The notes: generated from the letters alone by a model not told the origin. A stretch of DNA of 64,000 nt from Acidimicrobiia bacterium (GCA_038323195.1 JBBQGQ010000005.1:99217-163216); one strand, 5' to 3'. Positions 620 through 14,727 are shown, counted from the first letter of the stretch. Translations and numbers: made by a program.

Positions 620-1855
620 ATGAAAGCCTTGCTGTACGGCGTGAAGCCCGAACCCGTCCCGGAACCGGACACCGAGAACCCCTTGCTGCGCAGCCTCGCG
701 CACACTCCGATGAAGCTCGTCGACATGGACGAGCCGGGATTCTTCCTGCCCGACTGGGTCGTGACGCGCCCCCGCCTCACGGGGATATGCGGGTCGGACT
801 CGAAGCAGGTGTTCATGGACTGGGGCGAGGTGGGGTCGCCCGACAACCCCATGAAGGGGTTCTTCTCGCTGCCGCAGGTGCTCGGTCACGAGGTCGTCGC
901 CGACGTCGTCGCGGTCGGCCCGGAAGCCGAAGGTTTGCAGCCGGGTGATCGCGTCGTGCTGAACCCGTGGCTCTCGTGCGGCCCGCGCGGCGTGTCGCCG
1001 GTGTGCCCGGCGTGCGAAGTTGGCGACTTCAGCCTCTGCTTTTCCTTCGATGTCGGACCGATCCCGCCCGGCATCCACATCGGCACGGCACGCGACGTGA
1101 ACGGTGGGTACGCGCAAGTGATGTCGGCGCACGACTCGCAGCTCTTCAAGGTGCCCGACAACGTCTCCGATGAGCTCGCGGTGTTCGCCGACCCGTTCGC
1201 GGTCTCGTTGCATTCGGTCACCCGCCACCCTCCGACGCCGGGCGGCAAGGTGATGGTGTACGGCGCCGGCGCACTCGGGACCTGCGCGACCGCGATCCTG
1301 CGCGCGTTGTACCCCGACGTCGAAGTGCTCGTCGTCGCGCGCTTCGAGGCGCAGGCCGCGCTGGCTCGAAAGCTCGGCGCGAAGGTGATCGGGCACTCGC
1401 CCGCGTCGCGGGTCATCGAAGAGGCGGCGTCGTGGTCGGGGGGAGTGCTGCGCGCGAGCGACGGCCTGCCGATGGCCTTTCCCGGTTTCATCGACGTCGT
1501 GTACGACACCGTCGGCAAGCAGGAGACCTTCGAGGTCGGAACTCGGGTGCTCAAGGCGCGGGGCACGCTGGTAAAGGCCGGCGTACACGGACCGACGTGG
1601 TGGGAGGACACGCCGCTCTACTTCAAGGAGATCTCCATGGTCGGGTCGAACGCGTTCGGGTTCGAGGAGGTCGAAGGCGTGCGCAAGCACGGCATCCGCC
1701 ACTACCTCGACCTCGTATCGTCGGGCCGGATCGATCTCACGGGGATGCTCACGCACACCTTCGCGCTCGAGACCTGGCGCGACGCCTTCACCGCGCTCGC
1801 CACCCAGGACGACTCCGGCGCGATCAAGGTCGCCTTCGACTACCGGAGTGCGTGA
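620..1855 (+). CDS. zinc-dependent medium-chain alcohol/threonine-type dehydrogenase
   Basis: 411-aa ORF with a GHE motif (LGHEVVADVV), a Cys-rich structural-zinc loop (CGPRGVSPVCPACEVGDFSLC) and a Rossmann GAGALG. Its stop overlaps the next start (ATGA at 1853-1857). Confidence 0.85.
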   Translation: MKALLYGVKPEPVPEPDTENPLLRSLAHTPMKLVDMDEPGFFLPDWVVTRPRLTGICGSDSKQVFMDWGEVGSPDNPMKGFFSLPQVLGHEVVADVVAVGPEAEGLQPGDRVVLNPWLSCGPRGVSPVCPACEVGDFSLCFSFDVGPIPPGIHIGTARDVNGGYAQVMSAHDSQLFKVPDNVSDELAVFADPFAVSLHSVTRHPPTPGGKVMVYGAGALGTCATAILRALYPDVEVLVVARFEAQAALARKLGAKVIGHSPASRVIEEAASWSGGVLRASDGLPMAFPGFIDVVYDTVGKQETFEVGTRVLKARGTLVKAGVHGPTWWEDTPLYFKEISMVGSNAFGFEEVEGVRKHGIRHYLDLVSSGRIDLTGMLTHTFALETWRDAFTALATQDDSGAIKVAFDYRSA

Positions 1856-2649
1856 TGAGCGACGTCGTCCTCGTCGATATCGCGGATCGGGTCGCGGTCA
1901 TCACCTTGAACCGGCCCGATCAGCGGAACGCGCTGAATCGCGACGTCCGGCGCGAGCTGCCGGCGGCGATCACGCATTTCGACCGCGACGACGACGTCGA
2001 CGTGATGATTCTGACCGGCGCCGATCCGGCTTTCTCCGCGGGCGTCGACCTGAAGGAGTTCGGCTCGGGCCAAGTGCAGCAAGGCGAGAGCTTCGGCGCA
2101 GTCGCCGACAGCCGCGACACGTTCCGCGGCGCGCTCCCGCCGCACACCAAGCCGTTGATCGGCGCGGTCAACGGCGTCGCGGTGACCGGCGGATTCGAGG
2201 TTGCGCTGAATTGCGACTTCATCATTGCCTCGGATCGCGCCCGGTTCGCCGACACCCACGCGCGCGTCGGAGTGATGCCGGGTTGGGGTCTCACGGTGCT
2301 GCTCGCGCAGCGCATCGGCGTCGCCCGCGCCAAGCAGATGAGCGTCACCGGCAACTACCTCGACGCGCAGACGGCGTACGAGTGGTCACTGGTGAACGAA
2401 GTGGTTCCGCACGAGGAGTTGCTCCCGCACTGCCGGAGACTCGCGGCCGACATCGTCTCGAACGACCAGCTCGGCGTGCGCCGCATGCTGCGCACGTACG
2501 ACGAGGTGACCGCCACCACGGTCGGCGAGGGCTGGAAGATAGAGGCCCGCGTCAGCCGTGAATGGGAAGGCCCCGGGTTCGACCCCGCGAGCATCGAGTC
2601 CCGACGTATGAAGATCGTCGAACGCGGCCGCCGCCAAATCCAACCCTGA
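1855..2649 (+). CDS. enoyl-CoA hydratase/isomerase (crotonase family)
   Basis: ATG at 1855 inside the 1432..2649 ORF. Protein MSDVVLVDIADRVAVITLNRPDQRNALN...FSAGVDLKEF...GAVNGVAVTGGFEVALNCDFIIA is a typical crotonase fold. The upstream part of the ORF is Arg-rich noise overlapping the ADH gene. Confidence 0.9.
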   Translation: MSDVVLVDIADRVAVITLNRPDQRNALNRDVRRELPAAITHFDRDDDVDVMILTGADPAFSAGVDLKEFGSGQVQQGESFGAVADSRDTFRGALPPHTKPLIGAVNGVAVTGGFEVALNCDFIIASDRARFADTHARVGVMPGWGLTVLLAQRIGVARAKQMSVTGNYLDAQTAYEWSLVNEVVPHEELLPHCRRLAADIVSNDQLGVRRMLRTYDEVTATTVGEGWKIEARVSREWEGPGFDPASIESRRMKIVERGRRQIQP

Positions 2650-2680: not shown

Positions 2681-3658
2681 TCAGGGATCGGTGACGAGCA
2701 CGGGTGCGCGGTCAGTGACTCGGACGATGTCCTGGCGGACGCAGGTGTCGTCGCGATGCTCGATCGCGGCCATGAGCCCGGGAACCAGGACCAAGTCGTC
2801 GGGCCAGGCTTCGACGCCGCGGCCGGCGCCGTGGACTGTTGCTCCCCGCCGCCGGAGCGCGCCCGCCGTCGCGCCCGGAACGCACGCGGCCACGAGCTCG
2901 TCCCAACCTGCCGGCGCGCGTTGTTCGATCGACGGCGACCCGATCAGGTAGGTGCGGGCGAGGGATGCCTCCCAGCCGTCGCGTAGCGCGCCGGCGCGGA
3001 GCACGACCCGCTCGCCTGCAGCGAGCAGGCGCTCGGCTGCCAGCCACGTGGAGGTTCCGGGGTCGAGGGGCGCGGCGACGGCTTCGAATGCCGGGGTCGT
3101 GACGCCCTGCGACGCGAACGCAGCCGCGCACGCGCCGCGCAACGTGCCGGGCCGCACGCCGGGCCGGAGCGCGTCCACGATCGCCGTGAGCCCGGCTCGG
3201 GCAACGAGCGCAGCCCGTTCGACACCGGAGACCTTCTCTGGATCTGCAGTCCGCCACAGCACCGCGAACAGCGGCGCGGCGTCGACGATCTCGGCTCCAG
3301 GCGCCGCCTGTGTGACCAACGCGCCGAGCGCAGGGGTCATACCGTCGACGCCCACGCGCCGAGCGTCGCGCACGCCGTCGATCGCGGTGAGGGACGCGAG
3401 CAGCTTCTCCGGGTTCCACGTGATCCCGAAGAGATGCTCGACCGGAAAGTCGGTCGCGACGACCGCGTCGGTGTTCGAGAGAAGGTGCACGGCGGCGCGG
3501 CGGCGCACGACGACGCATCCGGGAGCGAACGCCCGGGTGCCGGCCAGCCAGAGTCGCGACACCCTGGTGACGGTCCGTGCGTTCGCCTCTCGTCCGAGCA
3601 GCAACACGTCGACCTCATCTCGTTCCATCAGGTCGATACACGCCGCGAGCCGGCTCAC
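2681..3658 (-). CDS. M24 (creatinase/prolidase) fold protein with degenerate metal site
   Basis: C-terminal 325 aa of ORF 2681..4111. A GTG at 3658 forms a GTGA overlap with the upstream stop; an alternative ATG lies at 3628. Aligned by eye with the neighbouring M24 gene, 3 of 5 metal ligands are replaced (D to R in VLRAG, D to S in GWEASLART, E to Q in RQDIVRVT). Confidence 0.75.
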   Translation of the reverse strand: MSRLAACIDLMERDEVDVLLLGREANARTVTRVSRLWLAGTRAFAPGCVVVRRRAAVHLLSNTDAVVATDFPVEHLFGITWNPEKLLASLTAIDGVRDARRVGVDGMTPALGALVTQAAPGAEIVDAAPLFAVLWRTADPEKVSGVERAALVARAGLTAIVDALRPGVRPGTLRGACAAAFASQGVTTPAFEAVAAPLDPGTSTWLAAERLLAAGERVVLRAGALRDGWEASLARTYLIGSPSIEQRAPAGWDELVAACVPGATAGALRRRGATVHGAGRGVEAWPDDLVLVPGLMAAIEHRDDTCVRQDIVRVTDRAPVLVTDP

Positions 3659-4830
3659 GAGGCGGCCCCGCCGTCGAGCTCGGCGCGCGCCGAGAGCCGC
3701 GCGTAGCCGTCTGCGGTCACGGCGACGATCTCCTCCGAGCGATGGCCGGCGCGGCCGTCGTCCCACACGACGGGCTCGAACACGAGAACCATGCCGGGTT
3801 GCAGGGTCAGGCCCGCGTCGAACGCGCGACCGAGATCGGTACCCACGAACGGCATCTCGGCGCTGTCGGTGCCGATTCCGTGGGCCAGGTAGAAATACGA
3901 CAGCCAGGGGCGCTCTCCGTGGTCGAGGCCGGCCGCGTCTGCGACTTCCGCCGCCGTCGCGCCCGGCTTCACCCGCTCGAGCGCGCGGTCGACGATCGCC
4001 CGCCAGCGCGCGAACTGATCGCGTTCGACGTCGTCGGGTTCGCGTCCGATGATCCATGTCGCGCCGAAGTCCGATGCGTAGCCGTGCAAATTGATCCCGG
4101 TGTCGATCCACATGACGTCGCCCGGTCCCAGCTCGTCGGCGCGGGTCGGGATCGGGAAGACCGGCTCACCGGTGACGGTGTACGGACCGGTGGCAACCGA
4201 ACGCGGCATCACCTGGAACACGGGGTCGACGGTGTTGGCGGTCGCGCCGAGCTCGGCGATCGCGCGGAGGAACATGCCCGAGAGGTCGGTCGCGCGCACG
4301 CCCGGCGCCGCGGCCGGCCGGACCGTCCGGATTGCCTCCTCGTTCAGCGCCTGCGCCCGGCGAATGCACTCGAGCTCGTCCGCGGTCTTCGTGAGCTTCG
4401 CCGGCACCATCACCGCGCCCGCGTCGACGACTTCGCGACGGCGCAACGCGTCCCAAAGCGGCATCGACGCGTCGTCGACGGCGACGCGGCTCCCGCCGAT
4501 CCTTCCGGCGAGCTCGCCCGCGCCCGCCGCGGTCTCGACTTCGATCGCCCGATGGAGGAATTCGTCCGGGAGCTCGGCCGGCGCGCCCTCGGGGAAGGCA
4601 GTGAACAGATGCGGCCACGGCGCGCCCCGCTCGAGCACCGCAACCGCGCGCCACAACGATGCGCGTACGTGATCGGCTGCCGGCACGCGGGCCCCCGACG
4701 CATAGGAGACGTTCTGCTGCCCACAGAGGACGAGCGTGTCGACGCCTGCGACACCCATGGCCGCGTCGAGCTTCGCGAGCCGGTCTCGGCGCATGCGCGC
4801 GAGGTCGAGCGCGCAGACGGGTTCGGTCAT
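3655..4830 (-). CDS. M24 family metallopeptidase/amidohydrolase (Xaa-Pro aminopeptidase / creatinase-like)
   Basis: ATG at 4830 (MTEPVCALDL...) inside ORF 3655..5649. All five pita-bread metal ligands are recognisable (WIDTG, YASDFGAT, AHGIG, FEPVVW, RSEEIVAVT). ATGA overlap with the upstream gene. Confidence 0.85.
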   Translation of the reverse strand: MTEPVCALDLARMRRDRLAKLDAAMGVAGVDTLVLCGQQNVSYASGARVPAADHVRASLWRAVAVLERGAPWPHLFTAFPEGAPAELPDEFLHRAIEVETAAGAGELAGRIGGSRVAVDDASMPLWDALRRREVVDAGAVMVPAKLTKTADELECIRRAQALNEEAIRTVRPAAAPGVRATDLSGMFLRAIAELGATANTVDPVFQVMPRSVATGPYTVTGEPVFPIPTRADELGPGDVMWIDTGINLHGYASDFGATWIIGREPDDVERDQFARWRAIVDRALERVKPGATAAEVADAAGLDHGERPWLSYFYLAHGIGTDSAEMPFVGTDLGRAFDAGLTLQPGMVLVFEPVVWDDGRAGHRSEEIVAVTADGYARLSARAELDGGAAS

Positions 4831-5780
4831 GCCTTGCCCGGCCGGCGACGATCGGAGGTCTGGAGGTAGACGGCGACCCGTGAGATGAGGCCGTCGGCGA
4901 CATCGAACACGACGGTCTCGTCGGTGTGCAGCCGATCGTCGCCGTCGTCGACCGTCTCGCTCAGCTCGACGGCGACGCGGTTGCCGTCGGCGATCACGTC
5001 GGCGACGACGAGCACGTAGCCCGAGAGTGCACTGATCGTGTTCCGAAGGAACTCGGCGTACCGCTCCCTCCCGCTGACCGCGTCGCGATACGGGCCGACG
5101 CGCTCGACGTCCGGCGCGAGCGACGCGGCCACCGCGTCCCAGTCGGCCGCGGCGAGCCCATCCAGGTATCGCTGCACGACATCGCGCGCGAATGCCTCGT
5201 CGAGCATCCGGCGCGCACCGGGACCAAGCGGCACCTCGGCAATCCGGGCGATGCCGGCGGCGCTCATCTTGCGCGCGGTCTTGGTGATCACACCCGGAAG
5301 CTTCTCCGGATCGAGGCGGGCCGCGATCTCGACGAGCTGCGTCTCGAGGAACACGAGGCAAAGCGCGTCCTCGAGCACTTGCACGTCGTCGTGCTCGCCG
5401 GCGCGGGCGAGTCCGTCCTTGCGGACGATCGCCTGTACGCGTCGGGTCGTCGCCTCGTCGTAGCCCGCGTCGCCGAGCAGGACGCCGAGCTCGTTCGCGT
5501 GTTGCGCGTGCAGGTCCTTGCGCCAGCGTAGGTAGCCCGCGCGCCCGGCCGGATAGCTCGCGCGCGGCACGGTCCAGCGGCGGAAGTGATGTCCGCGCGC
5601 GGCGAGCAGCAATGCATCGTCGGCATCGGGCTGGAGGCGCAACACCCATTCGGTGACGAGATCGGCGTGGACGATCTCCTTGGGTCCGGTGCGTTCGCCG
5701 ACCGTCACGATCGTCGGATCGGCCCGATTCGCATTGTCGATCGCGGCGAGGGCAGCGCGCAAGCGGGCGGACTGGGCCAT
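4827..5780 (-). CDS. DUF4202-like domain fused to SnoaL/NTF2-like domain, function unknown
   Basis: 317-aa ORF. The N-terminal two thirds (HHFRRWTVPRASYPAGRAGYLRWRKDLHAQHA) match my memory of the DUF4202 family. The C-terminal ~110 aa (VVQRYLDGLAAADWDAVAASL...ISRVAVYLQ) looks NTF2/SnoaL-like. Confidence 0.7.
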   Translation of the reverse strand: MAQSARLRAALAAIDNANRADPTIVTVGERTGPKEIVHADLVTEWVLRLQPDADDALLLAARGHHFRRWTVPRASYPAGRAGYLRWRKDLHAQHANELGVLLGDAGYDEATTRRVQAIVRKDGLARAGEHDDVQVLEDALCLVFLETQLVEIAARLDPEKLPGVITKTARKMSAAGIARIAEVPLGPGARRMLDEAFARDVVQRYLDGLAAADWDAVAASLAPDVERVGPYRDAVSGRERYAEFLRNTISALSGYVLVVADVIADGNRVAVELSETVDDGDDRLHTDETVVFDVADGLISRVAVYLQTSDRRRPGKA

Positions 5781-5789
5781 CAGCCGCAG

Positions 5790-5825
5790 CCTACGCAGCC
5801 ACTAGTGCCTACGCAGCCACTAGTG
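5790..5825. repeat. perfect 18-bp tandem duplication (CCTACGCAGCCACTAGTG x2) spanning a stop codon
   Basis: Copies at 5790-5807 and 5808-5825 are identical. The second copy contains the last codon and TAG stop of the 5820..6554 gene (minus strand). Confidence 0.95.
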
Positions 5826-6554
5826 AAGGTGCGACGCGAACCAGTCGAGGGCCCGCCGCCACGCGTCGGCCGCGTCGTCGGCGCGGTAGTCGGAACGCCG
5901 ATCGCAATGGAACCCGTGACCGGCGTCGGCGTAGCGCACGATATCCGTGTCGACCTTGGCGTCGCGTAGCGCGACGCGGAGCTGTTCGACGTCGTCGACG
6001 GGAATCGATGCGTCCTGGTCGCCGAACAGACCGAGCCACGGCGCCTGCAGTGAGGACGTCTCTTCGACGAGCGGCGGGAACTGTGGGAATCGGCCGGTCA
6101 CGATGCCGCCCCCGTAGAAACCGACGGCCGCGCCGAGGGGCCGGCGCAGGGCGACCAGGAACGACACGCGCCCGCCGAAGCAGAAGCCGACGATGCCGAT
6201 CCGGCTGTCGGCGTGGCCGGCGGCGTGCAGATGGGCGAGGGCGGCGTCGACGTCGGCGAGGACGGCGTCGTCGTTCGCCACGTCCCTGAAGTACTCCATC
6301 ACCTTCTCGAAGTCGCCGTACTCGACGACCGAGCCCGGACCCGAACGGTGGAAGAGGTCGGGCGCGACCGCGTGGTAGCCCGCCGCCGCGGCGCGACGGG
6401 TCACGTCTTCGATGTGGGGATTCACGCCGAAGGCTTCCTGAATGACGACGATCGCGCCCCGGTCGTCACCCGGCGGCCTCGCTTCGTACAACCGCATGGG
6501 ACCGTCGGCCGTCTCGACCGTGACGTCGTTGCCGGAAATATTGGCGTCGCTCAT
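5820..6554 (-). CDS. dienelactone hydrolase family protein (carboxymethylenebutenolidase-like)
   Basis: 244-aa ORF with a nucleophile elbow GFCFGG and a C-terminal HGF motif. Typical DLH length. Confidence 0.85.
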   Translation of the reverse strand: MSDANISGNDVTVETADGPMRLYEARPPGDDRGAIVVIQEAFGVNPHIEDVTRRAAAAGYHAVAPDLFHRSGPGSVVEYGDFEKVMEYFRDVANDDAVLADVDAALAHLHAAGHADSRIGIVGFCFGGRVSFLVALRRPLGAAVGFYGGGIVTGRFPQFPPLVEETSSLQAPWLGLFGDQDASIPVDDVEQLRVALRDAKVDTDIVRYADAGHGFHCDRRSDYRADDAADAWRRALDWFASHLH

Positions 6555-6659: not shown

Positions 6660-8040
6660 CTACGTCTAGATCGTGCGCCTATCGGTCGGTGAGGTTGACC
6701 TTGGATGGCTGCTGGGATGACGTGCTTCGAGCACTGAACCATTAGGACGCTGCTGGTCGCCTCGGGCTCAAGGATCCGACGACGAGGAGGTGCTGGTGAG
6801 GAAAGTGTTCGTTGGTCATGACTGGGCTGAAGTCCATCACGATGTGCATGTCGAGGGCGAGACCGGTCAACGTCTCGCCGCAAGGCGATTGCCGGAGGGC
6901 ATCGAAGGGGTGCGCCGGTTCCACGAGCTGGTCGCGACGTATGTGGATGAACCCGCGGATGTGACGGTCGCGACCGAGACCGACCGCGGGCTGTTCGTCG
7001 GCGCGCTGGTCGCGTCGGGTTATCGGGTATTGGCGGTGAACCCGATGTCGACGTCGCGTTATCGGGAACGGCACTCGAGTTCGGGTGCGAAATCTGATCC
7101 GGGTGACGCGAAAGTGTTGGCCGAGCTTGCCCGCCTCGATGGCCACAACCATCGACCGATCGCGGGTGACAGCGATCTCGCGGACGCGGTCAAGGTGCTC
7201 GCCCGTGCACATCACGCGATGATCTGGAGTCGGCAACGTCAAACCAACCAGCTTCGCTCGACCCTGCGCGAATTCTTCCCCGCCGCCCTTGGGGCATTTG
7301 ACGATCTCGCTTCTGGTGACGCACTCGCAGTGCTCGCAATCGCGCCGACACCAACCCAAGGCCGAGCACTGTCGCGATCGAAGATCGCATCCGCATTGCG
7401 GCGCGGGGGACGCCAACGACGTATCGAGGAACGCACGATCGAGATCCAGACCGCGCTGCGGTCTGAGCAACTCGAGGCCCCACCCGTCGTCGCCCAGGCG
7501 ATGGGCGCATCGGTCGCTGCGCTGGTCGCGGTGATCGCCGAGCTCGTCACCCAGACCGGCCGACTCGAAACCGGCCTGGCCGACCGTTTTGAACAGCACC
7601 CGGACGCCAAGATCATCCGTTCCCTGCCAGGACTGGGGATGATCCTCGGCGCCCGGGCGCTCGGCGAGTTCGGGGATGACCCGAACCGCTACCTGAACGC
7701 CAAGTCTCGCAAGAACTACGCCGGCACGTCACCCATCACCAGAGCCTCCGGCAAACAACGCGTCGTGCTCGCCCGCTACGCCCGCAACCGCCACCTCGCC
7801 GACACCTGCCGAATGTGGGCCTTCGCCACCATCACCAACAGCCCCGGAGCCAGAGCCTTCTACGACGAACGCCGCGCCAACGGCGACACCCACAACCGCG
7901 CACTCCGAGCACTCGCGAACCGGCTCGTCGGCATCCTCCACGGCTGCCTAGCCAACAACACCCTCTACGACGAACACATCGCCTGGGGACACAGAATCAC
8001 CCTCGCCGCTTGACACCCACGAACCCTGGGATGTCTAGAC
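6660..8040 (+). mobile_element. IS110-family insertion sequence (boundaries approximate)
   Basis: A single transposase ORF flanked by non-coding sequence, lying between a hydrolase gene and a regulator gene. GTCTAGA occurs at 6664-6670 and 8033-8039, and CTGGGATG at 6711-6718 and 8025-8032. No terminal inverted repeats seen, as is usual for IS110. Confidence 0.6.
6790..8013 (+). CDS. IS110 family transposase
   Basis: 407 aa. N-terminal DEDD-type domain (VFVGHDWAEVHHDV...ATETDRGL...) and C-terminal Transposase_20-type helix-hairpin-helix (IRSLPGLGMILGARALGEFGDDPNRY). Start may be the GTG at 6796. Confidence 0.9.
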   Translation: MLVRKVFVGHDWAEVHHDVHVEGETGQRLAARRLPEGIEGVRRFHELVATYVDEPADVTVATETDRGLFVGALVASGYRVLAVNPMSTSRYRERHSSSGAKSDPGDAKVLAELARLDGHNHRPIAGDSDLADAVKVLARAHHAMIWSRQRQTNQLRSTLREFFPAALGAFDDLASGDALAVLAIAPTPTQGRALSRSKIASALRRGGRQRRIEERTIEIQTALRSEQLEAPPVVAQAMGASVAALVAVIAELVTQTGRLETGLADRFEQHPDAKIIRSLPGLGMILGARALGEFGDDPNRYLNAKSRKNYAGTSPITRASGKQRVVLARYARNRHLADTCRMWAFATITNSPGARAFYDERRANGDTHNRALRALANRLVGILHGCLANNTLYDEHIAWGHRITLAA

Positions 8041-8393
8041 GGTCACCGTCCGCGGCCCGGAATAAGGCATCTGCCCGATGTGCGGACAGGCCTCTTAGGT
8101 CGATCCTCGACCTGTACCAACAGGCAGAGAGGGCGTCATGTTCGACAACCCCGAGATCATGCGACAACTCGTAGACGCTCGACTCGAGCAGCGCCGTCGC
8201 CAAGCGGCGGTCGGTCGGGTCGCGGGCCGGGCCCGGCGCCGGCGCCGGCACCTTCATTGGCTGCGGGTGCCACCCGCGACCTGGTTCGGCCGGCGGCGCG
8301 TGCCCGGTGCTTCGAAGCCCGCAACCGCGTAACGGTGAGCACGCGTCCGAATCCGGCCGCGGCGCGCTCGGAGGCTGGACCAAACTGAACGCC

Positions 8394-11381
8394 GTGCCCA
8401 CCCGCGTCTCGAGCTCCCGGTTCGTCGGACGCCGGGCCGAGCTGACTCGGCTCGAAGCGAGCTGGAAGGCAGCGGTCGTCGACGAGCGTGCGGCGACCGT
8501 GCTCCTGTCCGGCGAGGCGGGCGTCGGCAAGTCGCGGCTCGTGGCCGAGCTCGTCGCTCGTATTCCGGAGCCGTCGCTGGTGTTGTTCGGTCAATGCTTC
8601 GACCTCGTCGATCGCGCGATGCCATTCGGGCCGATCGTGCAGGTGATGCGCACGTTGCATCGCACGCTCGACGAGGCGACGCTCGAATCGGTCATCGGGC
8701 CGGGACGCGACGAGCTCGCGGTTCTGCTGCCCGCGCTCCACACGCCGGCGCGCGAGGGCATCGTCTCCGGCGCGCTGTTCGAGCAGCTGCTCGGCGCGTT
8801 CGAGCGGTTGGCCGAGCGCGTTCCCACCTTGCTGGTGCTCGAGGATCTGCACTGGGCCGATCGGTCGACACGCGAGCTGTTTGCGTATCTCGCTCGAAGT
8901 CTGCGCACGGCGTCGATGGTGCTGTTGGGAACGTATCGTTCCGACGATCTCCACCGGCGACATCCTTTGCGGGGTGTGCTGGCAGAGCTCGACCGCTCGG
9001 GCGCGGTCGAGCGGATCGAGCTTGCTCGCTTCGATCGTGACGAGGTGCGCGAGCTCATCTCGGCGATCGTCGGGAGCGAGCCGTCGACCGAGCTGGTCGA
9101 GCGGACGTATCGCCGCTCCGACGGCAACGCCTTCTTCGCCGAGGAGCTTCTCGCCGTCGACGCCACATACCACGCCACGTACCACGCGTCCATGCCATCG
9201 ACGTTGCGGGAGATCGTGCTCGCGCGCGTCGACGGGCTCTCCGAACCGGCGCAAAACGTGCTCCGTTGCGCGGCGGTCATCGGGCGTTCCGCCGATCACC
9301 GGCTCCTGGAGGCCGCGGCCGGCATTCCTCGCGAGGATCTGCTCGCCGGTCTGCGCGACGCGGTCGAGCACCAGATTCTCGTCACCGACGTCGACGGCCT
9401 GGAATACCGGTTTCGACACGCGCTCGTGCGCGAGGCCGTCGAGGACGACCTGTTACCCGGCGATCGCGTTGCATTGCACTCGCGCGTCGCGGAGGTGCTC
9501 GCCGAGCAACCGGTCTGGTTCGACGGGGGCGCGGCGCAGCTCCTGGCCGAGCTGGCCTGCCACTGGGACAGCGCACGCGATGCGCCGCGCGCGCTCGTCG
9601 CCGCGCTCGACGCCGCGCGCGCCGCCGAGCAGATCTATGCGTACGGCGATGCCCTCGACCACGCCGAACAGGTCCTCGCGTTGTGGGCGCAGGTTCCCGA
9701 CGCCGAGGATCGCACCGGCATGCGCCACGTCGACATGATGCGCTACGCGGCGACGCAGGCGGAGATGTCCGGGAGCACCGACCGAGCCCTCGACTACACC
9801 CGCTCGGCCATCGCTGAGATCGATCCCGTCGACGATCCGATCGTTGCCGGCCTGTTGCACGAGCGCTTCGGCCGGTACCTCTGGATGCTCGCGCGATCCT
9901 GGTCGGACATTCTCGAACATTGCCGCGAAGCCGTACGTCTCGTGCCGGTCGAGCCCAGCGCGGCGCGGGCGAAGGTGCTCGCCACCCTCGGCCAACAGTT
10001 GATGCTCGCGGGCCGCGACGACGAGGCCATGTCCGTCTGTGAGCAGGCGATCGCGGTGGCACAGGCGGTCGGTGAGCCGGTCATCGAGGGTCATGCGCAC
10101 AACTCCCTCGGAACGATCCTCGCCGGCATCGGGCGGTTGGACGAGGGACTCGCCGAGCTGCACCGCGCGCGAGCGCTCGCGCTCGAGACCGAGTCGTGGG
10201 CCGACGTCGCCCGCGCCGCGGTCAACGAGGGCGGCGCGCTCCAGACAACGGCCCGTGACGAGGAGGCGTTGGCGATCTCACTCGAAGGCGCCGAGATCGC
10301 GCGTGCCCACGGGCTCGACCGCGCCTTCGGCGCGTTCCTGCGGTTGAACGCAGTCGAGGCTCTTCGTGCGCTCGGCCGGTGGGACGAGGCCGACGAGCAA
10401 CTGCAGGAAGTCGAGAGTGTCGATCCGCTCGGCATCGACGCCTGGCGCCTCGCCGAGCACCGATGCCTGTTGGCGGTGGGGCGCGCGCAGTTCGAGACCG
10501 CGCGCGCCGAGGCGGCGCGGATGGAGCAGTTGGTCGGCCATGCGGGCGCAGTGCGCGACCACCTCGCGATCGAGCACGCGCACATTGCGATCGCGGGATG
10601 GAGCGGCGACGAGGCCGGGGCGTTCGAGCAGGCGCTCGCGGCCCTGCGCGAGCCGGTCGAGGATCTCCGGTTGTGCTCCGACGTCAGCGTCGAGGTCATC
10701 GTCGAAGGGCTCGCGGCCGGGGCGTCGGTCGCGGCGCGCACGCGGGAGCCCGAAGCTCGCGCCGAGTACCTGGAGCGCGTGCGCGAGCTGGGCGGCCAGC
10801 TCGACGACGGGGTAGCCGCCGATCGGTGGGGCGGCGGTCACCCCGGAGCCCTGGACGCGCTCCGCTGCCACATTGCCGCGGAGACCGCGCGCGCCGCTCG
10901 GAGTGACGACGGGCCGAGCTGGCTCGCGGTCGCCGAGATGTGGTCGGGCTACGCCATGCTCCCGCGTGAAGCGTACGCGCGCTTCCGCGCGACCGAGGCG
11001 TTCGTGCGCGACGACGACCGCGACGCCGCGGCGTCGAGCGCTCGTGATGCGTACGCGCTTGCCGCCGACATCGGCTGGATCTGTGTACGCGACGCGGTCG
11101 CAAGCCTGGCGCGCCGGGCGCGCCTTGATCTGGGCGCGGTCGCCAGTGCGGTGGCCTCGCCCGCGGATCGGTACGGTCTCACGGCCCGCGAGCTCGACGT
11201 CGTCGCGCTCGTGGCCGAGGGTCGCACGAATCGCCAGATCGCCGACGCGCTCTTCATCTCGGCCAAGACGGCGAGTGTGCACGTGTCGAACATCTTGGCC
11301 AAGCTCGGGGTGACCAATCGGGGCGAGGCGGCCGCCGCCGCCCGGCGTCTGGGTCTCGACCTCGGTGCCGCGGGCGCGTAG
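8394..11381 (+). CDS. large ATP-binding LuxR-family (LAL/MalT-like) transcriptional regulator
   Basis: P-loop GEAGVGKS near the N-terminus, a long helical/TPR-like middle and a C-terminal LuxR HTH (LTARELDVVALVAEGRTNRQIADALFISAKTASVHVSNILAKLGV). Start is uncertain (GTG 8307 or GTG 8394). Confidence 0.85.
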   Translation: MPTRVSSSRFVGRRAELTRLEASWKAAVVDERAATVLLSGEAGVGKSRLVAELVARIPEPSLVLFGQCFDLVDRAMPFGPIVQVMRTLHRTLDEATLESVIGPGRDELAVLLPALHTPAREGIVSGALFEQLLGAFERLAERVPTLLVLEDLHWADRSTRELFAYLARSLRTASMVLLGTYRSDDLHRRHPLRGVLAELDRSGAVERIELARFDRDEVRELISAIVGSEPSTELVERTYRRSDGNAFFAEELLAVDATYHATYHASMPSTLREIVLARVDGLSEPAQNVLRCAAVIGRSADHRLLEAAAGIPREDLLAGLRDAVEHQILVTDVDGLEYRFRHALVREAVEDDLLPGDRVALHSRVAEVLAEQPVWFDGGAAQLLAELACHWDSARDAPRALVAALDAARAAEQIYAYGDALDHAEQVLALWAQVPDAEDRTGMRHVDMMRYAATQAEMSGSTDRALDYTRSAIAEIDPVDDPIVAGLLHERFGRYLWMLARSWSDILEHCREAVRLVPVEPSAARAKVLATLGQQLMLAGRDDEAMSVCEQAIAVAQAVGEPVIEGHAHNSLGTILAGIGRLDEGLAELHRARALALETESWADVARAAVNEGGALQTTARDEEALAISLEGAEIARAHGLDRAFGAFLRLNAVEALRALGRWDEADEQLQEVESVDPLGIDAWRLAEHRCLLAVGRAQFETARAEAARMEQLVGHAGAVRDHLAIEHAHIAIAGWSGDEAGAFEQALAALREPVEDLRLCSDVSVEVIVEGLAAGASVAARTREPEARAEYLERVRELGGQLDDGVAADRWGGGHPGALDALRCHIAAETARAARSDDGPSWLAVAEMWSGYAMLPREAYARFRATEAFVRDDDRDAAASSARDAYALAADIGWICVRDAVASLARRARLDLGAVASAVASPADRYGLTARELDVVALVAEGRTNRQIADALFISAKTASVHVSNILAKLGVTNRGEAAAAARRLGLDLGAAGA

Positions 11382-11412
11382 GCCGAGGAACTTCGCGGGT
11401 CAGGACCGGTCG

Positions 11413-12309
11413 TTACGTCGACAACTCGATCGGCTCGCCTTCGCGACCGACGGTCACGCCGGCGTCGTCGAGCACGATCGTCATGCCCTCGAAGGCGAGG
11501 CAGACGCGGTCCTCCGCCCCGGGCCAGTTTTTCCGCGCTTCCACGAGCAACGCCTCGAGCTCGTCGTCGGTGTGGTACGGATCGTGGTGGAACAGGACGA
11601 GATTGTCGACGCCCGCCTTGTCGGCGAACCTCATGGCATCCCCGATGCTCGAGTGCCCCCAGCCGATGTGCGCGCCGTACTCGTGATCGCGGTACTGCGC
11701 GTCGTGTAACAACACGTCGGCGTGGTGAGCGATGTCGTGACCGCTCATCCACGTCGCGGGAACATTCACGAGATCGCCGCCGATCGATGGCTCGTGATCA
11801 GGGAGGTAGACGAGCGTGTGCCCGTTCTCCTCGATTCGATAGCCGACCGTGGGGCCTTGGTGCGTCACCTTGGCGGCTCGAATCGTCGCCGACCCGACGG
11901 TCACCGGCTCTTCGGGTGCGTCGTGGAACGTGAGGTGCGACGGCACGTCTTCGAGGCGTACCGGGAACAACGGCGGCGAGAGATACATCGCGATGCGTTC
12001 GGCCAAATGCTGCACCGGCGATGTCGGACCCCAGATGTGGATGTCGAGCGCGGGTGCGAACAGAGGCCGGAAGAACCCGAGACCCTGCAAATGGTCCATG
12101 TGCAGATGTGTGAGCAGGATGTGCAGTTCGACGGGAAGATCGTCTTGCATCGACACGCCGAGCGGCCGCATTCCGGTCCCGGCGTCGAGGACCAGTACGT
12201 GACCGCTGTCGAGGCGCACCTCGACACACGACGTGTTGCCGCCGTACTTGACGGTATCGGCACCCGGCACCGCGACAGACCCTCGACATCCCCACACGCG
12301 GGCGCGCAT
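11413..12309 (-). CDS. MBL-fold metallo-hydrolase
   Basis: ATG at 12309 (MRARVWGCRGS...) with an HxHxDH motif (LTHLHMDHLQG). Its start overlaps the upstream stop (TGATG). Confidence 0.85.
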   Translation of the reverse strand: MRARVWGCRGSVAVPGADTVKYGGNTSCVEVRLDSGHVLVLDAGTGMRPLGVSMQDDLPVELHILLTHLHMDHLQGLGFFRPLFAPALDIHIWGPTSPVQHLAERIAMYLSPPLFPVRLEDVPSHLTFHDAPEEPVTVGSATIRAAKVTHQGPTVGYRIEENGHTLVYLPDHEPSIGGDLVNVPATWMSGHDIAHHADVLLHDAQYRDHEYGAHIGWGHSSIGDAMRFADKAGVDNLVLFHHDPYHTDDELEALLVEARKNWPGAEDRVCLAFEGMTIVLDDAGVTVGREGEPIELST

Positions 12310-12740
12310 CAGTGATCGTATTCCCCGGGTTCGCCCTCCCAAAACACCGCGACCACGCCGTGCATCTCACCGTTCCCGCCGAGCAACGGATACGCGGTGG
12401 CCTCGTACTCGCGTCGCGCGCCGTCGAACGCGGTGGCGACGAGCCGCTTGTGCGCGGGCCGGCGCTCGTAATACGCGATGCCGGATGGCGAGTCGCGCCG
12501 GCGAACCGGCTCTCCGTCGGGCGTCGCGAGCTGCAGGGCGGTGCCGAACTCACCGGAGGGAATCTCTCCGAGCTCGGCAAACGGCTTGCCGAGCAGCATT
12601 GCCGCCGCATCGTTGTAGAAGACGAGCATGCCCCCGGGATCCATCAAGAACATCGGCGTCGCGAGGTTCGACGCGAGCTCGCGCGCCAGGATCAACGGCA
12701 AGCTCTTGGGCGAGCCCGGCGTGCCCAGCGAGTCACTCAC
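12309..12740 (-). CDS. stand-alone PAS-domain protein
   Basis: C-terminal 143 aa of ORF 12309..13058 (LILARELASNLATPMFLMDPGGMLVFYNDAAAMLLGKPF...) looks like a PAS fold. The GTG at 12740 is the first start downstream of the carbonic anhydrase gene, so the start is uncertain. Confidence 0.6.
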   Translation of the reverse strand: MSDSLGTPGSPKSLPLILARELASNLATPMFLMDPGGMLVFYNDAAAMLLGKPFAELGEIPSGEFGTALQLATPDGEPVRRRDSPSGIAYYERRPAHKRLVATAFDGARREYEATAYPLLGGNGEMHGVVAVFWEGEPGEYDH

Positions 12741-12831
12741 CTCGCGCCGGTCCCTCGAGCCTGCTCGTCCACACGGGACCCATCGTTGCCGCGTCCGCCA
12801 GAGATCGCCAAACACGCCCCCCGTCCGGCCC

Positions 12832-13326
12832 TTACGGGTCGGGTACAGGGAGGAGCTCACCGCTGTGCACGTCGAAGATGAACCCACCGACGTGGAGGTC
12901 GGGAGGTAACAGCGGGCACGACGCGATGAGCTCCATGTCGCCGCGCAACGTCGCCAGCTGGTCCGTGCTCGCCAAGAAGTCCCAACCCCCGGCGTCGACA
13001 CCGCGGATCGCGCCGATACGCGTTCGCAGCTCGTCGTCGGTCGAGCCGACCATGGCACAGTCGGTGTGCTGTACGACGCAGACGCGCGTCACGCCGAGCA
13101 GGTTCACTGCGAGCACGAGCGAGCGCAGCGCGTCGGTGGTCACGCGTGCGCCCGCGTTGCGGATGATCTTCGCGTCGCCGGCACGCAACCCGGCCAGCGC
13201 GAGGGGATCGATGCGGGAATCGATGCACGTCAGCACGGCCAAGCCCTTCGCGGCGACGCCGGCTACGCCCGAATCGTGGAACTCGCGACGGTAGTGGCGG
13301 TTGGCGGCGAGCAGATCATCGAACAT
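12832..13326 (-). CDS. beta-class carbonic anhydrase
   Basis: 164 aa with zinc-ligand motifs CIDSR and HTDCAM. Confidence 0.9.
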   Translation of the reverse strand: MFDDLLAANRHYRREFHDSGVAGVAAKGLAVLTCIDSRIDPLALAGLRAGDAKIIRNAGARVTTDALRSLVLAVNLLGVTRVCVVQHTDCAMVGSTDDELRTRIGAIRGVDAGGWDFLASTDQLATLRGDMELIASCPLLPPDLHVGGFIFDVHSGELLPVPDP

Positions 13327-13600
13327 CGACCACTTCTTCTAGCAGGTCCCGTCTTCTAGCAGGCTGCGTCCGGGCCGTTCGATGATCCGTCGATCATCCC
13401 GTAGTCGAGCGTTCGCCGTCCTTCAGGATCCGTTCCACCGTCTCCCCGGTAAGTGGGTCTCGTACGAGGCGAGCGAGACGGCCGGCGGGTGGTGTTCCGA
13501 CTCACGCCCGGTTCTTTCACCGAAGCCGCCGGATGGATGCACGACGTCGGCGCGCGTGGGATCGGCGACTCGACAAGTTGGCGCGCCGGGTGACGTGAAA

Positions 13601-13649
13601 CCGCTGACGAGACCCCGCTGACGAGACCCCGCTGACGAGACCCCGCTGA
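13601..13649. repeat. 14-bp tandem repeat CCGCTGACGAGACC x3.5
   Basis: Three perfect copies (13601-13614, 13615-13628, 13629-13642) plus a 7-nt partial copy, in the divergent intergenic region upstream of the ferredoxin gene. Confidence 0.95.
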
Positions 13650-13713
13650 GGCCCGAAGCCCGGTGACGCGCGTGCGCTACGGTGCCGCCCGTCAGTGTGA
13701 ACGGGAGGAACCC

Positions 13714-13917
13714 ATGAGCTTCCGGGTCGTCGTCGACTTCGACAAGTGCGAGAGCAACGCGTTGTGCATGGCCGCCGCGCCCGAGGTGTTCGAGGTGCGC
13801 GAGGACGACTTCTTGTACGTGCTCCAAGAGGAGCCCGCCGACGACCTGCGCGCCAAGTGCGAGGAAGCGGTCCGCGTCTGCCCGAAGCAGGCGATCTCGA
13901 TCGTCGACGCTTCCTGA
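13714..13917 (+). CDS. small single-cluster ferredoxin
   Basis: ATG at 13714 preceded by GGGAGGAA. The 67-aa protein MSFRVVVDFDKCESNALCMAAAPEVF...RVCPKQAISIV has the Cys-x5-Cys...Cys-Pro pattern of actinobacterial 3Fe-4S/4Fe-4S ferredoxins. Confidence 0.85.
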   Translation: MSFRVVVDFDKCESNALCMAAAPEVFEVREDDFLYVLQEEPADDLRAKCEEAVRVCPKQAISIVDAS

Positions 13918-13926
13918 GCCGGGCCG

Positions 13927-14724: not shown

Positions 14725-14727
14725 GCA

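What the first reader, a model, noticed from the sequence alone, without database searches (positions are those of the whole stretch)
2681..6554. Four-gene operon of unknown role: dienelactone hydrolase, DUF4202-SnoaL fusion, active M24 enzyme and a metal-site-degenerate M24 paralogue
All four genes lie on the minus strand. The last three are joined by overlapping stop/start codons (ATGA at 4827-4830, GTGA at 3655-3658). Aligning the two M24 proteins by eye, the first keeps all five pita-bread metal ligands (D, D, H, E, E). The second keeps only H and one E, with D to R, D to S and E to Q replacements. A catalytically competent subunit tightly coupled to a degenerate paralogue suggests an obligate hetero-oligomer or a substrate-binding pseudoenzyme. 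The M24 fold is used by non-peptidase amidohydrolases and lyases (creatinase, ectoine hydrolase DoeA, DMSP lyase DddP), so the substrate need not be a peptide. The DUF4202-like/NTF2 fusion has no assigned function. I know of no described pathway with this gene combination.
Basis: partly seen in the sequence, partly recalled or inferred. Interest (0 to 1): 0.55.

Follow-up and report, generated by a model that had tools for sequence, protein, structure and literature searches.

The report
Paired live and dead M24 hydrolases
Two adjacent genes encode a metal-binding hydrolase and a sister protein that has lost its metal site; the pair always travels together in soil actinobacteria and probably forms one two-part enzyme whose substrate is unknown.

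Summary
Four minus-strand genes lie at 2681-6554: DLH, a DUF4202-SnoaL fusion, M24A and M24B. The stop/start overlaps are ATGA at 4827-4830 and GTGA at 3655-3658. A profile-profile alignment confirms the ligand mapping. M24A keeps D243, D254, H317, E352 and E366. M24B has R221, S232, H276, E300 and Q309.

The robust unit is the M24A-M24B pair, not the four-gene set. M24A sits directly upstream of M24B in all 80 species-level genomes recovered (35-86% identity). The two genes overlap or lie within 11 nt in 45 of 49 pairs. DLH and DUF4202-SnoaL accompany the pair in only one Acidimicrobiia-like lineage: 20 complete loci, with flanking synteny also conserved. In the more distant relatives the upstream gene is a PtmU3/DitZ-like dinuclear oxygenase, set in CoA-dependent catabolic clusters.

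M24B's ligand columns are degenerate family-wide, and its pocket has lost an 11-residue loop. Its N-terminal domain is nevertheless its most conserved part, and dN/dS is about 0.3.

Most likely this is a head-to-tail heterodimer with one active site, capped by M24B's N-domain. M24A lacks both peptidase-type second-shell histidines, so the substrate is probably not an ordinary peptide. No complex or activity has been shown.

The parts
5820..6554 (-). Dienelactone-hydrolase-family Cys hydrolase (244 aa), first gene of the co-directional set
   Evidence: PF01738 at 8e-51. C125, D179/D181, H213 and E40 are conserved in 17-18 of 18 orthologues. It reaches only 116 bits against the 460-bit cut-off of NCBIfam YghX.
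5789..5824 (.). Perfect 18-bp tandem duplication (GCCTACGCAGCCACTAGT x2) spanning the DLH stop codon, in the 39-nt spacer
   Evidence: sequence read. In relatives such as L002, DLH and DUF4202 overlap by 4 nt.
4827..5780 (-). DUF4202 (residues 9-190) fused to a SnoaL_2/NTF2-like domain (residues 202-301), 317 aa
   Evidence: Pfam hits. The AF2 model has pLDDT 94: a helical domain plus an NTF2 cone. PDB fold hits cover only the NTF2 part: KSI, LEH-like and SnoaL-like structures. No solved relative of the DUF4202 part was found by profile search. dN/dS is 0.22.
4827..4830 (-). ATGA overlap: DUF4202-SnoaL stop and M24A start
3655..4830 (-). M24A: two-domain pita-bread protein with a complete dinuclear metal site (D243, D254, H317, E352, E366)
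   Evidence: PF00557 at 7e-31. The ligands are kept in 57-58 of 58 family members. A324 is invariant where peptidases have the 'HE' His, and Y/W/F217 stands where prolidases have the 'PHG' His. It is below every NCBIfam cut-off.
3655..3658 (-). GTGA overlap: M24A stop and M24B start
   Evidence: The two genes overlap or lie within 11 nt in 45 of 49 related pairs.
2681..3658 (-). M24B: degenerate M24 paralogue (R221, S232, H276, E300, Q309 at the ligand columns; 11-residue deletion after the His column)
   Evidence: The AF2 model has pLDDT 87.9 and a prolidase-like two-domain fold. dN/dS is 0.27-0.31.
3479..3613 (-). M24B residues 16-60 (DVLLLGREANAR...RLWLAGTRAFAPGCVVV): the most conserved stretch of M24B and the proposed cap or loop for the M24A active site
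   Evidence: Majority-residue conservation is 0.79-0.83 here, against 0.54 for the M24B C-domain. It is the only low-confidence segment of the AF2 monomer, with residues 38-43 below 50.
620..2649 (+). Convergent Zn-ADH (620-1855) and enoyl-CoA hydratase (1852-2649): conserved synteny in the same lineage, not part of the transcription unit
6790..12342 (.). Insertion relative to relatives, upstream of DLH: IS110 transposase (6790-8013, + strand), AAA_16/GerE regulator (8307-11381, + strand) and MBL-fold protein (11413-12342, - strand)
   Evidence: Pfam hits. In relatives the carbonic-anhydrase gene lies directly beside DLH.

Best explanation
M24A and M24B are two subunits of one enzyme. By analogy with the head-to-tail dimers of small prolidases, M24A supplies the only dinuclear metal centre. 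M24B is a non-catalytic paralogue whose C-terminal pocket is dead. Its N-terminal domain, especially the invariant R35-C48 loop, packs onto and helps to shape the M24A active site. The two proteins would be made in fixed ratio through translational coupling.

M24A has lost both second-shell histidines used by M24 peptidases. The substrate is therefore more likely a small amide, amidine, ester or carboxylate metabolite than an ordinary Xaa-Pro peptide.

In this lineage the pair is co-transcribed with a Cys-type dienelactone-hydrolase-family esterase and a DUF4202-NTF2 protein. In other lineages it is coupled to a PtmU3/DitZ-like dinuclear oxygenase within CoA-dependent catabolic clusters. So it behaves as a portable hydrolytic module placed behind different tailoring or ring-opening enzymes.

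Shown: the gene structure, the ligand pattern, the universal pairing, the asymmetric conservation and the purifying selection.

Inferred: the physical complex, the role of the M24B N-domain and the substrate class.
For: - Pairing: M24A lies immediately upstream of M24B on the same strand in all 80 GTDB loci. The genes overlap or lie within 11 nt in 45 of 49 full-length pairs.
- M24A ligands are kept in 57-58 of 58 sequences. The M24B ligand columns are R/S/D/A, S/E/L, H/Y/D/R, E/T/G and Q/G/R/A/K across 68 sequences.
- hhalign confirms the column mapping and shows an 11-residue deletion in M24B of the loop that is invariant in M24A.
- Conservation is mirror-asymmetric on 49 paired loci. M24A scores 0.585 in the N-domain and 0.698 in the C-domain. 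M24B scores 0.659 in the N-domain and 0.538 in the C-domain. M24B's family-wide invariant polar residues (D17, R23, N26, R28, T41, R42, C48, H58, W81, D105) lie in the N-domain. Its C-domain invariants are mostly Gly, Pro and Leu.
- The AF2 monomer of M24B is confident everywhere except the invariant loop at 31-50, as expected for an interface element.
- The nearest folds are homodimeric small prolidases.
- Prolidases dimerise head-to-tail, and in E. coli PepQ an N-domain loop residue (Asp45) reaches into the other monomer's active site (PMC4213023).
- M24B is not decaying: dN/dS is 0.27-0.31, and the family has 164 clusters at 50% identity with E<=1e-30.
- M24A has A324 in 58 of 58 sequences, and Y/W/F217 in place of the peptidase histidines.
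- Catalytic-plus-auxiliary paralogue heterodimers are established in other families: AibH1H2 (PMC12141560) and M16 MPP (PMC11266112).
Against: - There is no direct evidence of a complex. A multimer prediction could not be run.
- No genuine M24A-M24B fusion exists. All long candidates are frameshift artefacts.
- M24A's own N-domain also has invariant residues (Y43, G46, D53, R61), so an M24A homodimer is not excluded.
- In the window's own lineage the replaced ligand columns are fixed (R221, S232, E300, Q309). This could mean that M24B's pocket still binds something.
- The equivalence of the M24B loop to PepQ Asp45 rests on position in the domain, not on a structural superposition.
- The substrate class is unsupported by any assay.
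Confidence: 0.55

Rival explanations
1. The four genes (DLH, DUF4202-SnoaL, M24A, M24B) form one dedicated pathway. This is the first reader's reading: an ester or lactone is opened by DLH, rearranged by the NTF2 domain, and an amide is cleaved by the M24 pair.
For: The genes share a strand with overlaps or a 39-nt gap, and no terminator-like site lies between them. The set recurs in 20 complete loci, with M24B identity from 49 to 86%. It also recurs with DUF4202-SnoaL fusions of only 65-70% identity.
Against: In the same loci the flanking genes (ADH, ECH, carbonic anhydrase, SDR, ACAD) are conserved too, so the linkage may simply be inherited synteny. A three-gene radical-SAM/Memo/AMMECR1 block is inserted between DUF4202-SnoaL and M24A in about 9 relatives. 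None of the roughly 50 more distant pairs has DUF4202 or an orthologous DLH within 10 kb.
Confidence: 0.25
2. M24B is an independent metal-free enzyme, as creatinase is within the M24 fold, and merely shares an operon with M24A.
For: Creatinase shows that the pita-bread fold can catalyse without metals (own knowledge; creatinases are among the fold matches). R221, E230, S232, E300 and Q309 are fixed in the close lineage.
Against: Across the whole family no polar pocket residue of the C-domain is conserved, and the ligand columns vary freely. An 11-residue active-site loop is deleted. The strongest constraint is on the N-domain.
Confidence: 0.1
3. M24B is a non-catalytic binding, chaperone or regulatory protein that acts on something other than M24A. 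Candidates are the upstream enzyme (the ARO oxygenase or DUF4202-SnoaL) or a substrate carrier.
For: The upstream gene is also translationally coupled: Amidohydro_2 and M24A overlap by 4 nt in 21 of 30 loci. High-potential AROs lack the Rieske partner seen with other AROs (PMC13154177), which leaves room for unknown partners.
Against: The upstream partner changes between lineages while the A-B pairing never does. M24B is a paralogue of a family that dimerises with itself.
Confidence: 0.1
4. M24B is a decaying duplicate, that is, a pseudogene in the making.
For: It has lost ligands and evolves faster than M24A. For the same genomes it is 57-74% identical, against 68-85% for M24A.
Against: The reading frame is intact in 80 genomes down to 35% identity. 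dN/dS is about 0.3. There are 33 positions at least 95% conserved, and GC3 is 0.84 in frame.
Confidence: 0.02

Closest known systems
Small two-domain prolidases / Xaa-Pro dipeptidases (Pyrococcus 1pv9 and 1wy2, Deinococcus 5giu, B. anthracis 3q6d, L. lactis 4zng, E. coli PepQ)
   Same: They share the Creatinase_N plus pita-bread architecture and are the best sequence and fold matches for both proteins. They form head-to-tail dimers in which an N-domain loop of one monomer reaches the other's active site (PMC4213023).
   Different: They are homodimers with two equivalent metal sites. M24A lacks both second-shell histidines. M24B lacks three to four ligands plus a loop. Neither protein approaches the NCBIfam PepQ cut-off: 39 and 19 bits against 630.
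Creatinase (creatine amidinohydrolase, 1chm/1kp0/7yto)
   Same: It is an M24-fold protein without the metal site and a non-peptide amidinohydrolase. Its active site is built from both subunits (own knowledge). It appears among the fold matches of M24B.
   Different: It is a homodimer and is itself catalytic. M24B has no conserved catalytic residue in its pocket across the family.
Non-peptidase metal-dependent M24 enzymes: DMSP lyase DddP and ectoine hydrolase DoeA/EutD
   Same: They keep the dinuclear site but act on small carboxylate metabolites. They give weak profile and fold matches.
   Different: Scores are far below the family cut-offs: DddP 36 bits against 600, DoeA 21 bits against 575. 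They are homo-oligomers with no degenerate partner gene.
EBP1/PA2G4, the only M24 pseudopeptidase listed in a 2024 review
   Same: It is an M24 fold that retains only two of five ligands and has a non-catalytic role (PMC11266112).
   Different: It is eukaryotic, of the MetAP2 type without a Creatinase_N domain, and binds the ribosome. It is not paired with an active paralogue.
Active/inactive paralogue heteromers in other metalloenzyme families: M16 mitochondrial processing peptidase alpha/beta, bacterial M16B heterosubunit enzymes, AibH1H2
   Same: They follow the same logic: one catalytic subunit plus a degenerate paralogue that shapes substrate binding or stabilises the complex (PMC11266112; PMC12141560).
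   Different: They have unrelated folds, and their complexes are demonstrated experimentally. Here the complex is inferred.
Amidohydrolase-related dinuclear oxygenases (PtmU3, DitZ): the neighbour of the pair in distant relatives, not present in this window
   Same: The gene directly upstream of M24A in about 30 distant loci matches PtmU3 at 2e-31 and DitZ at 7e-23. It carries the D-x-H and D-x-P-H-x-D/E motifs (motifs from PMC13154177).
   Different: No such gene lies in the 64-kb window. The ARO papers read here do not mention M24 neighbours.

Membership tests
Peptidase M24 / pita-bread fold (PF00557) | Significant match to PF00557 with a Creatinase_N-type N-domain | tested here: met
   M24A scores 108 bits. 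M24B scores 36 bits for PF00557 and 24 bits for PF01321, all above the Pfam cut-offs of 23 and 22. The M24B model matches prolidases at TM 0.66-0.75.
Peptidase M24 / pita-bread fold (PF00557) | Five metal ligands (D, D, H, E, E) | tested here: met
   This row is for M24A: D243, D254, H317, E352 and E366 are kept in 57-58 of 58 sequences.
Peptidase M24 / pita-bread fold (PF00557) | Five metal ligands (D, D, H, E, E), tested for M24B | tested here: not met
   M24B has R221, S232, H276 (Y or N in most close relatives), E300 and Q309. These columns vary across the family.
M24 peptidases proper (MetAP, aminopeptidase P, prolidase) | Second-shell catalytic histidines: the 'HE' motif after the ligand His, and the 'PHG' / MetAP His79-type His | tested here: not met
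   M24A has A324 in 58 of 58 sequences and Y/W/F217 at these positions. The role of these histidines is taken from own knowledge of MetAP and AMPP.
Xaa-Pro dipeptidase PepQ, type I MetAP, DddP, DoeA (NCBIfam equivalogs) | Score at or above the curated cut-off | tested here: not met
   The best M24A hits are MetAP 65 bits against 171, PepQ 39 against 630, DddP 36 against 600 and DoeA 21 against 575. All M24B hits are 19 bits or less.
Creatinase-type metal-free M24 enzyme (considered for M24B) | Conserved catalytic residues in the C-domain pocket despite loss of the metals | tested here: not met
   Apart from R235, T236 and C259, the family-wide invariants in the C-domain are Gly, Pro or Leu, and an active-site loop is deleted. 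The test is by conservation only.
Heteromeric enzyme with one catalytic and one degenerate paralogous subunit (as M16 MPP, AibH1H2) | Paralogous genes always co-located and co-translated | tested here: met
   Adjacent in 80 of 80 loci. Overlapping or within 11 nt in 45 of 49 pairs.
Heteromeric enzyme with one catalytic and one degenerate paralogous subunit (as M16 MPP, AibH1H2) | Physical complex and dependence of activity on the degenerate subunit | not testable with these tools
   Only single-chain prediction was available, and all apparent fusions are artefacts.
Dienelactone hydrolase family (PF01738) | Domain match and a Cys-His-Asp catalytic triad | tested here: met
   The domain scores 173 bits. 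C125, H213 and D179/D181 are conserved in 17-18 of 18 orthologues. The assignment of the triad residues is by motif and own knowledge.
DUF4202 (PF13875) fused to SnoaL_2 (PF12680) | Both domains above the Pfam cut-offs in one polypeptide | tested here: met
   DUF4202 scores 190 bits and SnoaL_2 scores 61 bits. The fusion is present in all 120 best homologues.
Amidohydrolase-related dinuclear oxygenase (ARO) + M24 pair module | An ARO gene with D-x-H and D-x-P-H-x-D/E motifs directly upstream of M24A | tested here: not met
   There is no homologue in the 64-kb window. The feature is met only in distant relatives: 26 of the 27 adjacent genes carry both motifs.

The most novel reading that the evidence does not exclude
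The M24A/M24B pair is a previously unrecognised class of obligate heterodimeric pita-bread enzyme: one metal site capped by a pseudo-subunit's N-domain, acting on a non-peptide metabolite. In most lineages it works hand in hand with PtmU3/DitZ-type dinuclear oxygenases in the breakdown of terpenoid- or lipid-like acids. It could process the oxygenase's product or form a complex with the oxygenase. This would supply a missing partner for the 'high-potential' AROs that lack Rieske ferredoxins.
Probability: 0.25. Interest if true: 0.7.

Novelty: new variant of a known kind. Interest (0 to 1): 0.5.

Why it matters
If the pair is an obligate heterodimer, it would be the first M24 (pita-bread) enzyme built from one live and one dead paralogue. 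That design is known for M16 peptidases and for AibH1H2 but is not listed for M24. The 2024 review of pseudo-metallopeptidases names only eukaryotic EBP1 for M24.

The family is sizeable (164 clusters at 50% identity) and is uniformly annotated as 'Xaa-Pro dipeptidase/aminopeptidase'. That label is probably wrong for both members.

The tight coupling to PtmU3/DitZ-like oxygenases in other actinobacteria, including Streptomyces and Mycobacterium branderi, gives experimentalists culturable entry points. It also points to an undescribed step in CoA-dependent catabolism of hydrophobic acids.

For this window specifically, the four-gene 'operon' should be read as a lineage-specific arrangement, not as a defined pathway.

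Tried and rejected
1. Natural M24A-M24B fusions as Rosetta-stone evidence. P0181 (683 aa), P0385, P0445, P0450 and P0051 all contain out-of-frame Arg/Ala/Pro-rich stretches. They are frameshift artefacts of long-read MAGs. Rejected.
2. Multimer modelling. Only single-chain AF2 was available, and the artefactual fusions garble the key N-terminal loop. Not attempted.
4. Literature. There were no papers for DUF4202. Searches for an M24 heterodimer or inactive subunit, Amidohydro_2 with Peptidase_M24 and P450/amidohydrolase/Xaa-Pro operons found nothing relevant. AmmeMemoRadiSam has no functional study. The DitZ search returned only surnames.
5. Annotated records. The only close plasmid hit is M. 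branderi pJCM12687, which carries generic names only.
6. The pairwise BLASTP of M24A against M24B misaligns the C-terminal third, pairing H317 with a Pro. It was replaced by hhalign of the family profiles.
7. My first three ORF-calling heuristics lost or misplaced the M24 genes. They were replaced by a suffix-score caller that reproduces the window genes.
8. I considered a DMSP link (a DddP-like M24 plus a DddD-like double CoA-transferase). It was rejected because the scores are far below the family cut-offs and the setting is soil actinobacterial.

Full report
**What is in the sequence**

Four genes lie on the minus strand between 2681 and 6554.
- A dienelactone-hydrolase-family protein: 5820-6554, 244 aa.
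- A DUF4202-SnoaL_2 fusion: 4827-5780, 317 aa.
- A 391-aa M24 protein, here called M24A: 3655-4830.
- A 325-aa M24 protein with a GTG start, here called M24B: 2681-3658.

DLH and the fusion gene are separated by 39 nt. All four genes have GC3 of 0.84-0.88 in frame. Pfam confirms every domain. None of the four proteins reaches the cut-off of any curated NCBIfam family. No terminator-like site separates the genes.

**The ligand claim**

Alignments to T. maritima MetAP and B. anthracis prolidase place M24A's ligands at D243, D254, H317, E352 and E366. Alignments of M24B, and of a 111-sequence profile of it, to prolidases show the first Asp replaced by R221 and the second by S232. A plain BLASTP of the two proteins misaligns the C-terminal third, so I compared the two family profiles with hhalign. 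At probability 93.6% it pairs D243/R221, D254/S232, H317/H276, E352/E300 and E366/Q309. It also shows that M24B has lost 11 residues (AEMPFVGTDLG) that are nearly invariant in M24A. One correction applies: H276 is Tyr or Asn in most close relatives.

**How general is it?**

M24B has 569 word-indexed homologues. In an exhaustive search it has 164 clusters at 50% identity with E<=1e-30. Nearly all come from Acidimicrobiia or Actinomycetota metagenome bins.

A scan of one genome per GTDB species returned 80 loci with 35-86% identity. tblastn with the window's proteins shows M24A immediately upstream of M24B, on the same strand, in every one of them. With my own gene calls, the two genes overlap or lie within 11 nt in 45 of 49 full-length pairs.

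Across these loci M24A keeps all five ligands in 57-58 of 58 sequences. The M24B ligand columns are not merely substituted but variable: R/S/D/A, S/E/L, H/Y/D/R, E/T/G and Q/G/R/A/K.

M24B is nevertheless under purifying selection. Its dN/dS is 0.27-0.31, against 0.21 for M24A.

**The four-gene set is lineage-specific**

DLH and the DUF4202-SnoaL fusion accompany the pair only where M24B is at least 49% identical to the window's. That covers 29 loci. Twenty have all four genes, and most of the remaining nine are cut by contig ends. In the same loci the flanks are conserved too: a convergent ECH and Zn-ADH on one side, and carbonic anhydrase, a ClpP-like gene, ArsR, ferredoxin, SDR and ACAD on the other. 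The co-occurrence is therefore real, but it cannot be separated from inherited synteny.

In eight of these loci, and in L002 and L086, a radical-SAM/Memo/AMMECR1 triad is inserted between the fusion gene and M24A. It lies on the same strand, with gaps of 50 nt or less. Fusion proteins of only 65-70% identity still sit in this context.

In the remaining 51 loci (M24B 35-46% identical) there is no DUF4202 and no orthologous DLH within 10 kb.

**What replaces them in distant relatives**

In about 30 distant loci the gene directly upstream of M24A is a PF04909 protein. It overlaps M24A by 4 nt in 21 of 30 cases.
- Its best solved relatives are PtmU3 (2e-31) and DitZ (7e-23).
- These are amidohydrolase-related dinuclear oxygenases (AROs), defined by D-x-H and D-x-P-H-x-D/E motifs (PMC13154177).
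- Both motifs are present in 39 of 42 members and in 26 of the 27 that abut M24A.

The surrounding genes encode P450s, ferredoxin, SDRs, enoyl-CoA hydratases, double family-III CoA-transferases, acyl-CoA dehydrogenases and ligases, Rieske and KstD-like oxidoreductases, and TetR/MarR regulators. An isolate example is Mycobacterium branderi pJCM12687: ferredoxin, P450, amidohydrolase, 'Xaa-Pro peptidase' and 'M24 metallopeptidase' in one row. Streptomyces sp. NPDC019531 has an eight-gene version. The 64-kb window contains no ARO homologue.

The pair thus behaves as a module that is plugged in behind different enzymes.

**How the pair probably works**

On 49 paired loci the conservation is mirror-asymmetric.
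- M24A is more conserved in its catalytic C-domain (0.698) than in its N-domain (0.585).
- M24B is more conserved in its N-domain (0.659) than in its C-domain (0.538).

Residues 16-60 of M24B (DVLLLGREANAR...RLWLAGTRAFAPGCVVV) are as conserved as M24A's catalytic core. M24B's family-wide invariant polar residues lie in the N-domain, whereas its C-domain invariants are mostly Gly, Pro and Leu.

The AF2 model of M24B is confident (pLDDT 87.9) and has the two-domain prolidase fold. Its one poorly placed segment is exactly that invariant loop, with residues 38-43 below 50. The nearest structures are small homodimeric prolidases, followed by creatinase, DddP and DoeA.

Prolidases dimerise head-to-tail, and in E. 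coli PepQ an N-domain loop residue of one monomer (Asp45) reaches into the other monomer's active site (PMC4213023).

Taken together, the most economical reading is a head-to-tail heterodimer. The M24B N-domain caps the single live site of M24A. The reciprocal site, formed by the M24A N-domain over the M24B pocket, has been abandoned. This is inference, because no complex was modelled or measured.

**What the substrate might be**

M24A has Ala324 in 58 of 58 sequences where MetAP, aminopeptidase P and prolidase have the His of the 'HE' motif. It has Tyr, Trp or Phe at 217 where prolidases have the 'PHG' His. A complete dinuclear site without the peptidase histidines is what one would expect of a non-peptidase M24 enzyme such as DddP or DoeA. 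The scores to those families are nonetheless far below their cut-offs.

The DLH is likely to be active: C125, H213, D179/D181 and E40 are conserved in 17-18 of 18 orthologues. In both lineages the pair lies downstream of another enzyme: a Cys esterase/lactonase-type hydrolase here and an oxygenase elsewhere. That fits a downstream hydrolytic step on a small metabolite. Beyond that I cannot name a substrate.

**The DUF4202-SnoaL protein**

The model is very confident (pLDDT 94). It shows a helical domain (residues 1-210) followed by an NTF2 cone. Fold matches are only to the NTF2 half: ketosteroid isomerases, an LEH-like epoxide hydrolase and SnoaL-like cyclases. A profile of the DUF4202 half finds no solved relative, and no paper in the library mentions DUF4202. 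Invariant residues include E35, H38, R62-G63-H64-H65, R67-R68-W69, E137-D138 and E146. Its function stays unknown.

**Comparison with what is known**

A 2024 review of inactive metallopeptidase homologues lists only eukaryotic EBP1 for family M24. It cites the active/inactive heteromer design for M16 (PMC11266112). A 2025 review of heteromeric enzymes describes the same logic for AibH1H2, whose catalytic subunit is an ARO (PMC12141560). The ARO papers I read do not mention M24 neighbours. I therefore class the pair as a new variant of a known kind: the catalytic-plus-degenerate-paralogue design, in a fold where it has not been described, with the caveat that the library is not exhaustive.

**Limits**
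- Neighbourhood families rest on my own GC3-based gene caller and single-linkage BLAST clusters. Several long-read MAG loci are riddled with frameshifts.
- Alignment of the far-clade M24B C-domains is less secure than that of the near clade.
- The equivalence between M24B's loop and PepQ Asp45 is positional only.
- dN/dS in a 70% GC genome is approximate.

**Verdict**

The pseudo-subunit idea is supported by comparative evidence but not demonstrated. The 'four-gene operon' is a lineage-specific arrangement. Interest is moderate, at 0.5.

Noticed in passing
window 5789-5824: A perfect 18-bp tandem duplication (GCCTACGCAGCCACTAGT x2) spans the DLH stop codon and fills the DLH/DUF4202 spacer. In relatives these two genes overlap by 4 nt.
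   Followed up: partly
window 6790-12342: An IS110-family transposase (6790-8013), a 1024-aa AAA_16/GerE (LuxR-type) regulator (8307-11381) and an MBL-fold protein (11413-12342) lie between DLH and the beta-carbonic anhydrase gene (12832-13326). In related genomes the carbonic anhydrase and DLH genes are direct neighbours. This block therefore looks like an insertion just upstream of the operon's presumed promoter region.
   Followed up: partly
L002 4336-6799; also L015, L016, L017, L018, L024, L052, L056, L063, L086: The 'AmmeMemoRadiSam' triad (radical SAM, Memo, AMMECR1), itself of unknown function, is inserted between DUF4202-SnoaL and M24A. It lies on the same strand with gaps of 50 nt or less, giving a seven-gene co-directional row.
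   Followed up: partly
L079 7497-11056; L076 7570-11089; L085 11591-15125 (M. branderi plasmid), and about 27 other loci: A PtmU3/DitZ-like amidohydrolase-related dinuclear oxygenase, with D-x-H and D-x-P-H-x-D/E motifs, is translationally coupled to M24A-M24B. P450s, ferredoxin, enoyl-CoA hydratase and a double family-III CoA-transferase often lie nearby. The ARO papers read here do not mention this association.
   Followed up: partly
L002 about 10500-15500; L016, L019, L022, L024, L052 (downstream of M24B, opposite strand): In the sub-lineage with the radical-SAM triad, a second operon lies a few kb downstream of the M24 pair. It carries DUF35/ChsH2-like, thiolase-like and ARO-like (PF04909, family F1) genes. 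It is absent from the window.
   Followed up: no
proteins P0051, P0181, P0385, P0445, P0450; loci L001, L003, L012, L025, L037, L052, L063: Long-read MAG assemblies of these high-GC genomes carry many indels. These yield false 'fusion' or split M24 proteins in public protein collections, which is a trap for Rosetta-stone inference.
   Followed up: yes
loci L020, L040, L054, L059, L071: Record titles assign these loci to Burkholderiales, Bifidobacteriaceae, Proteobacteria or Thermodesulfobacteriota. Their gene content and synteny match the Acidimicrobiia-type loci, so bin or taxonomy mislabels are likely.
   Followed up: no
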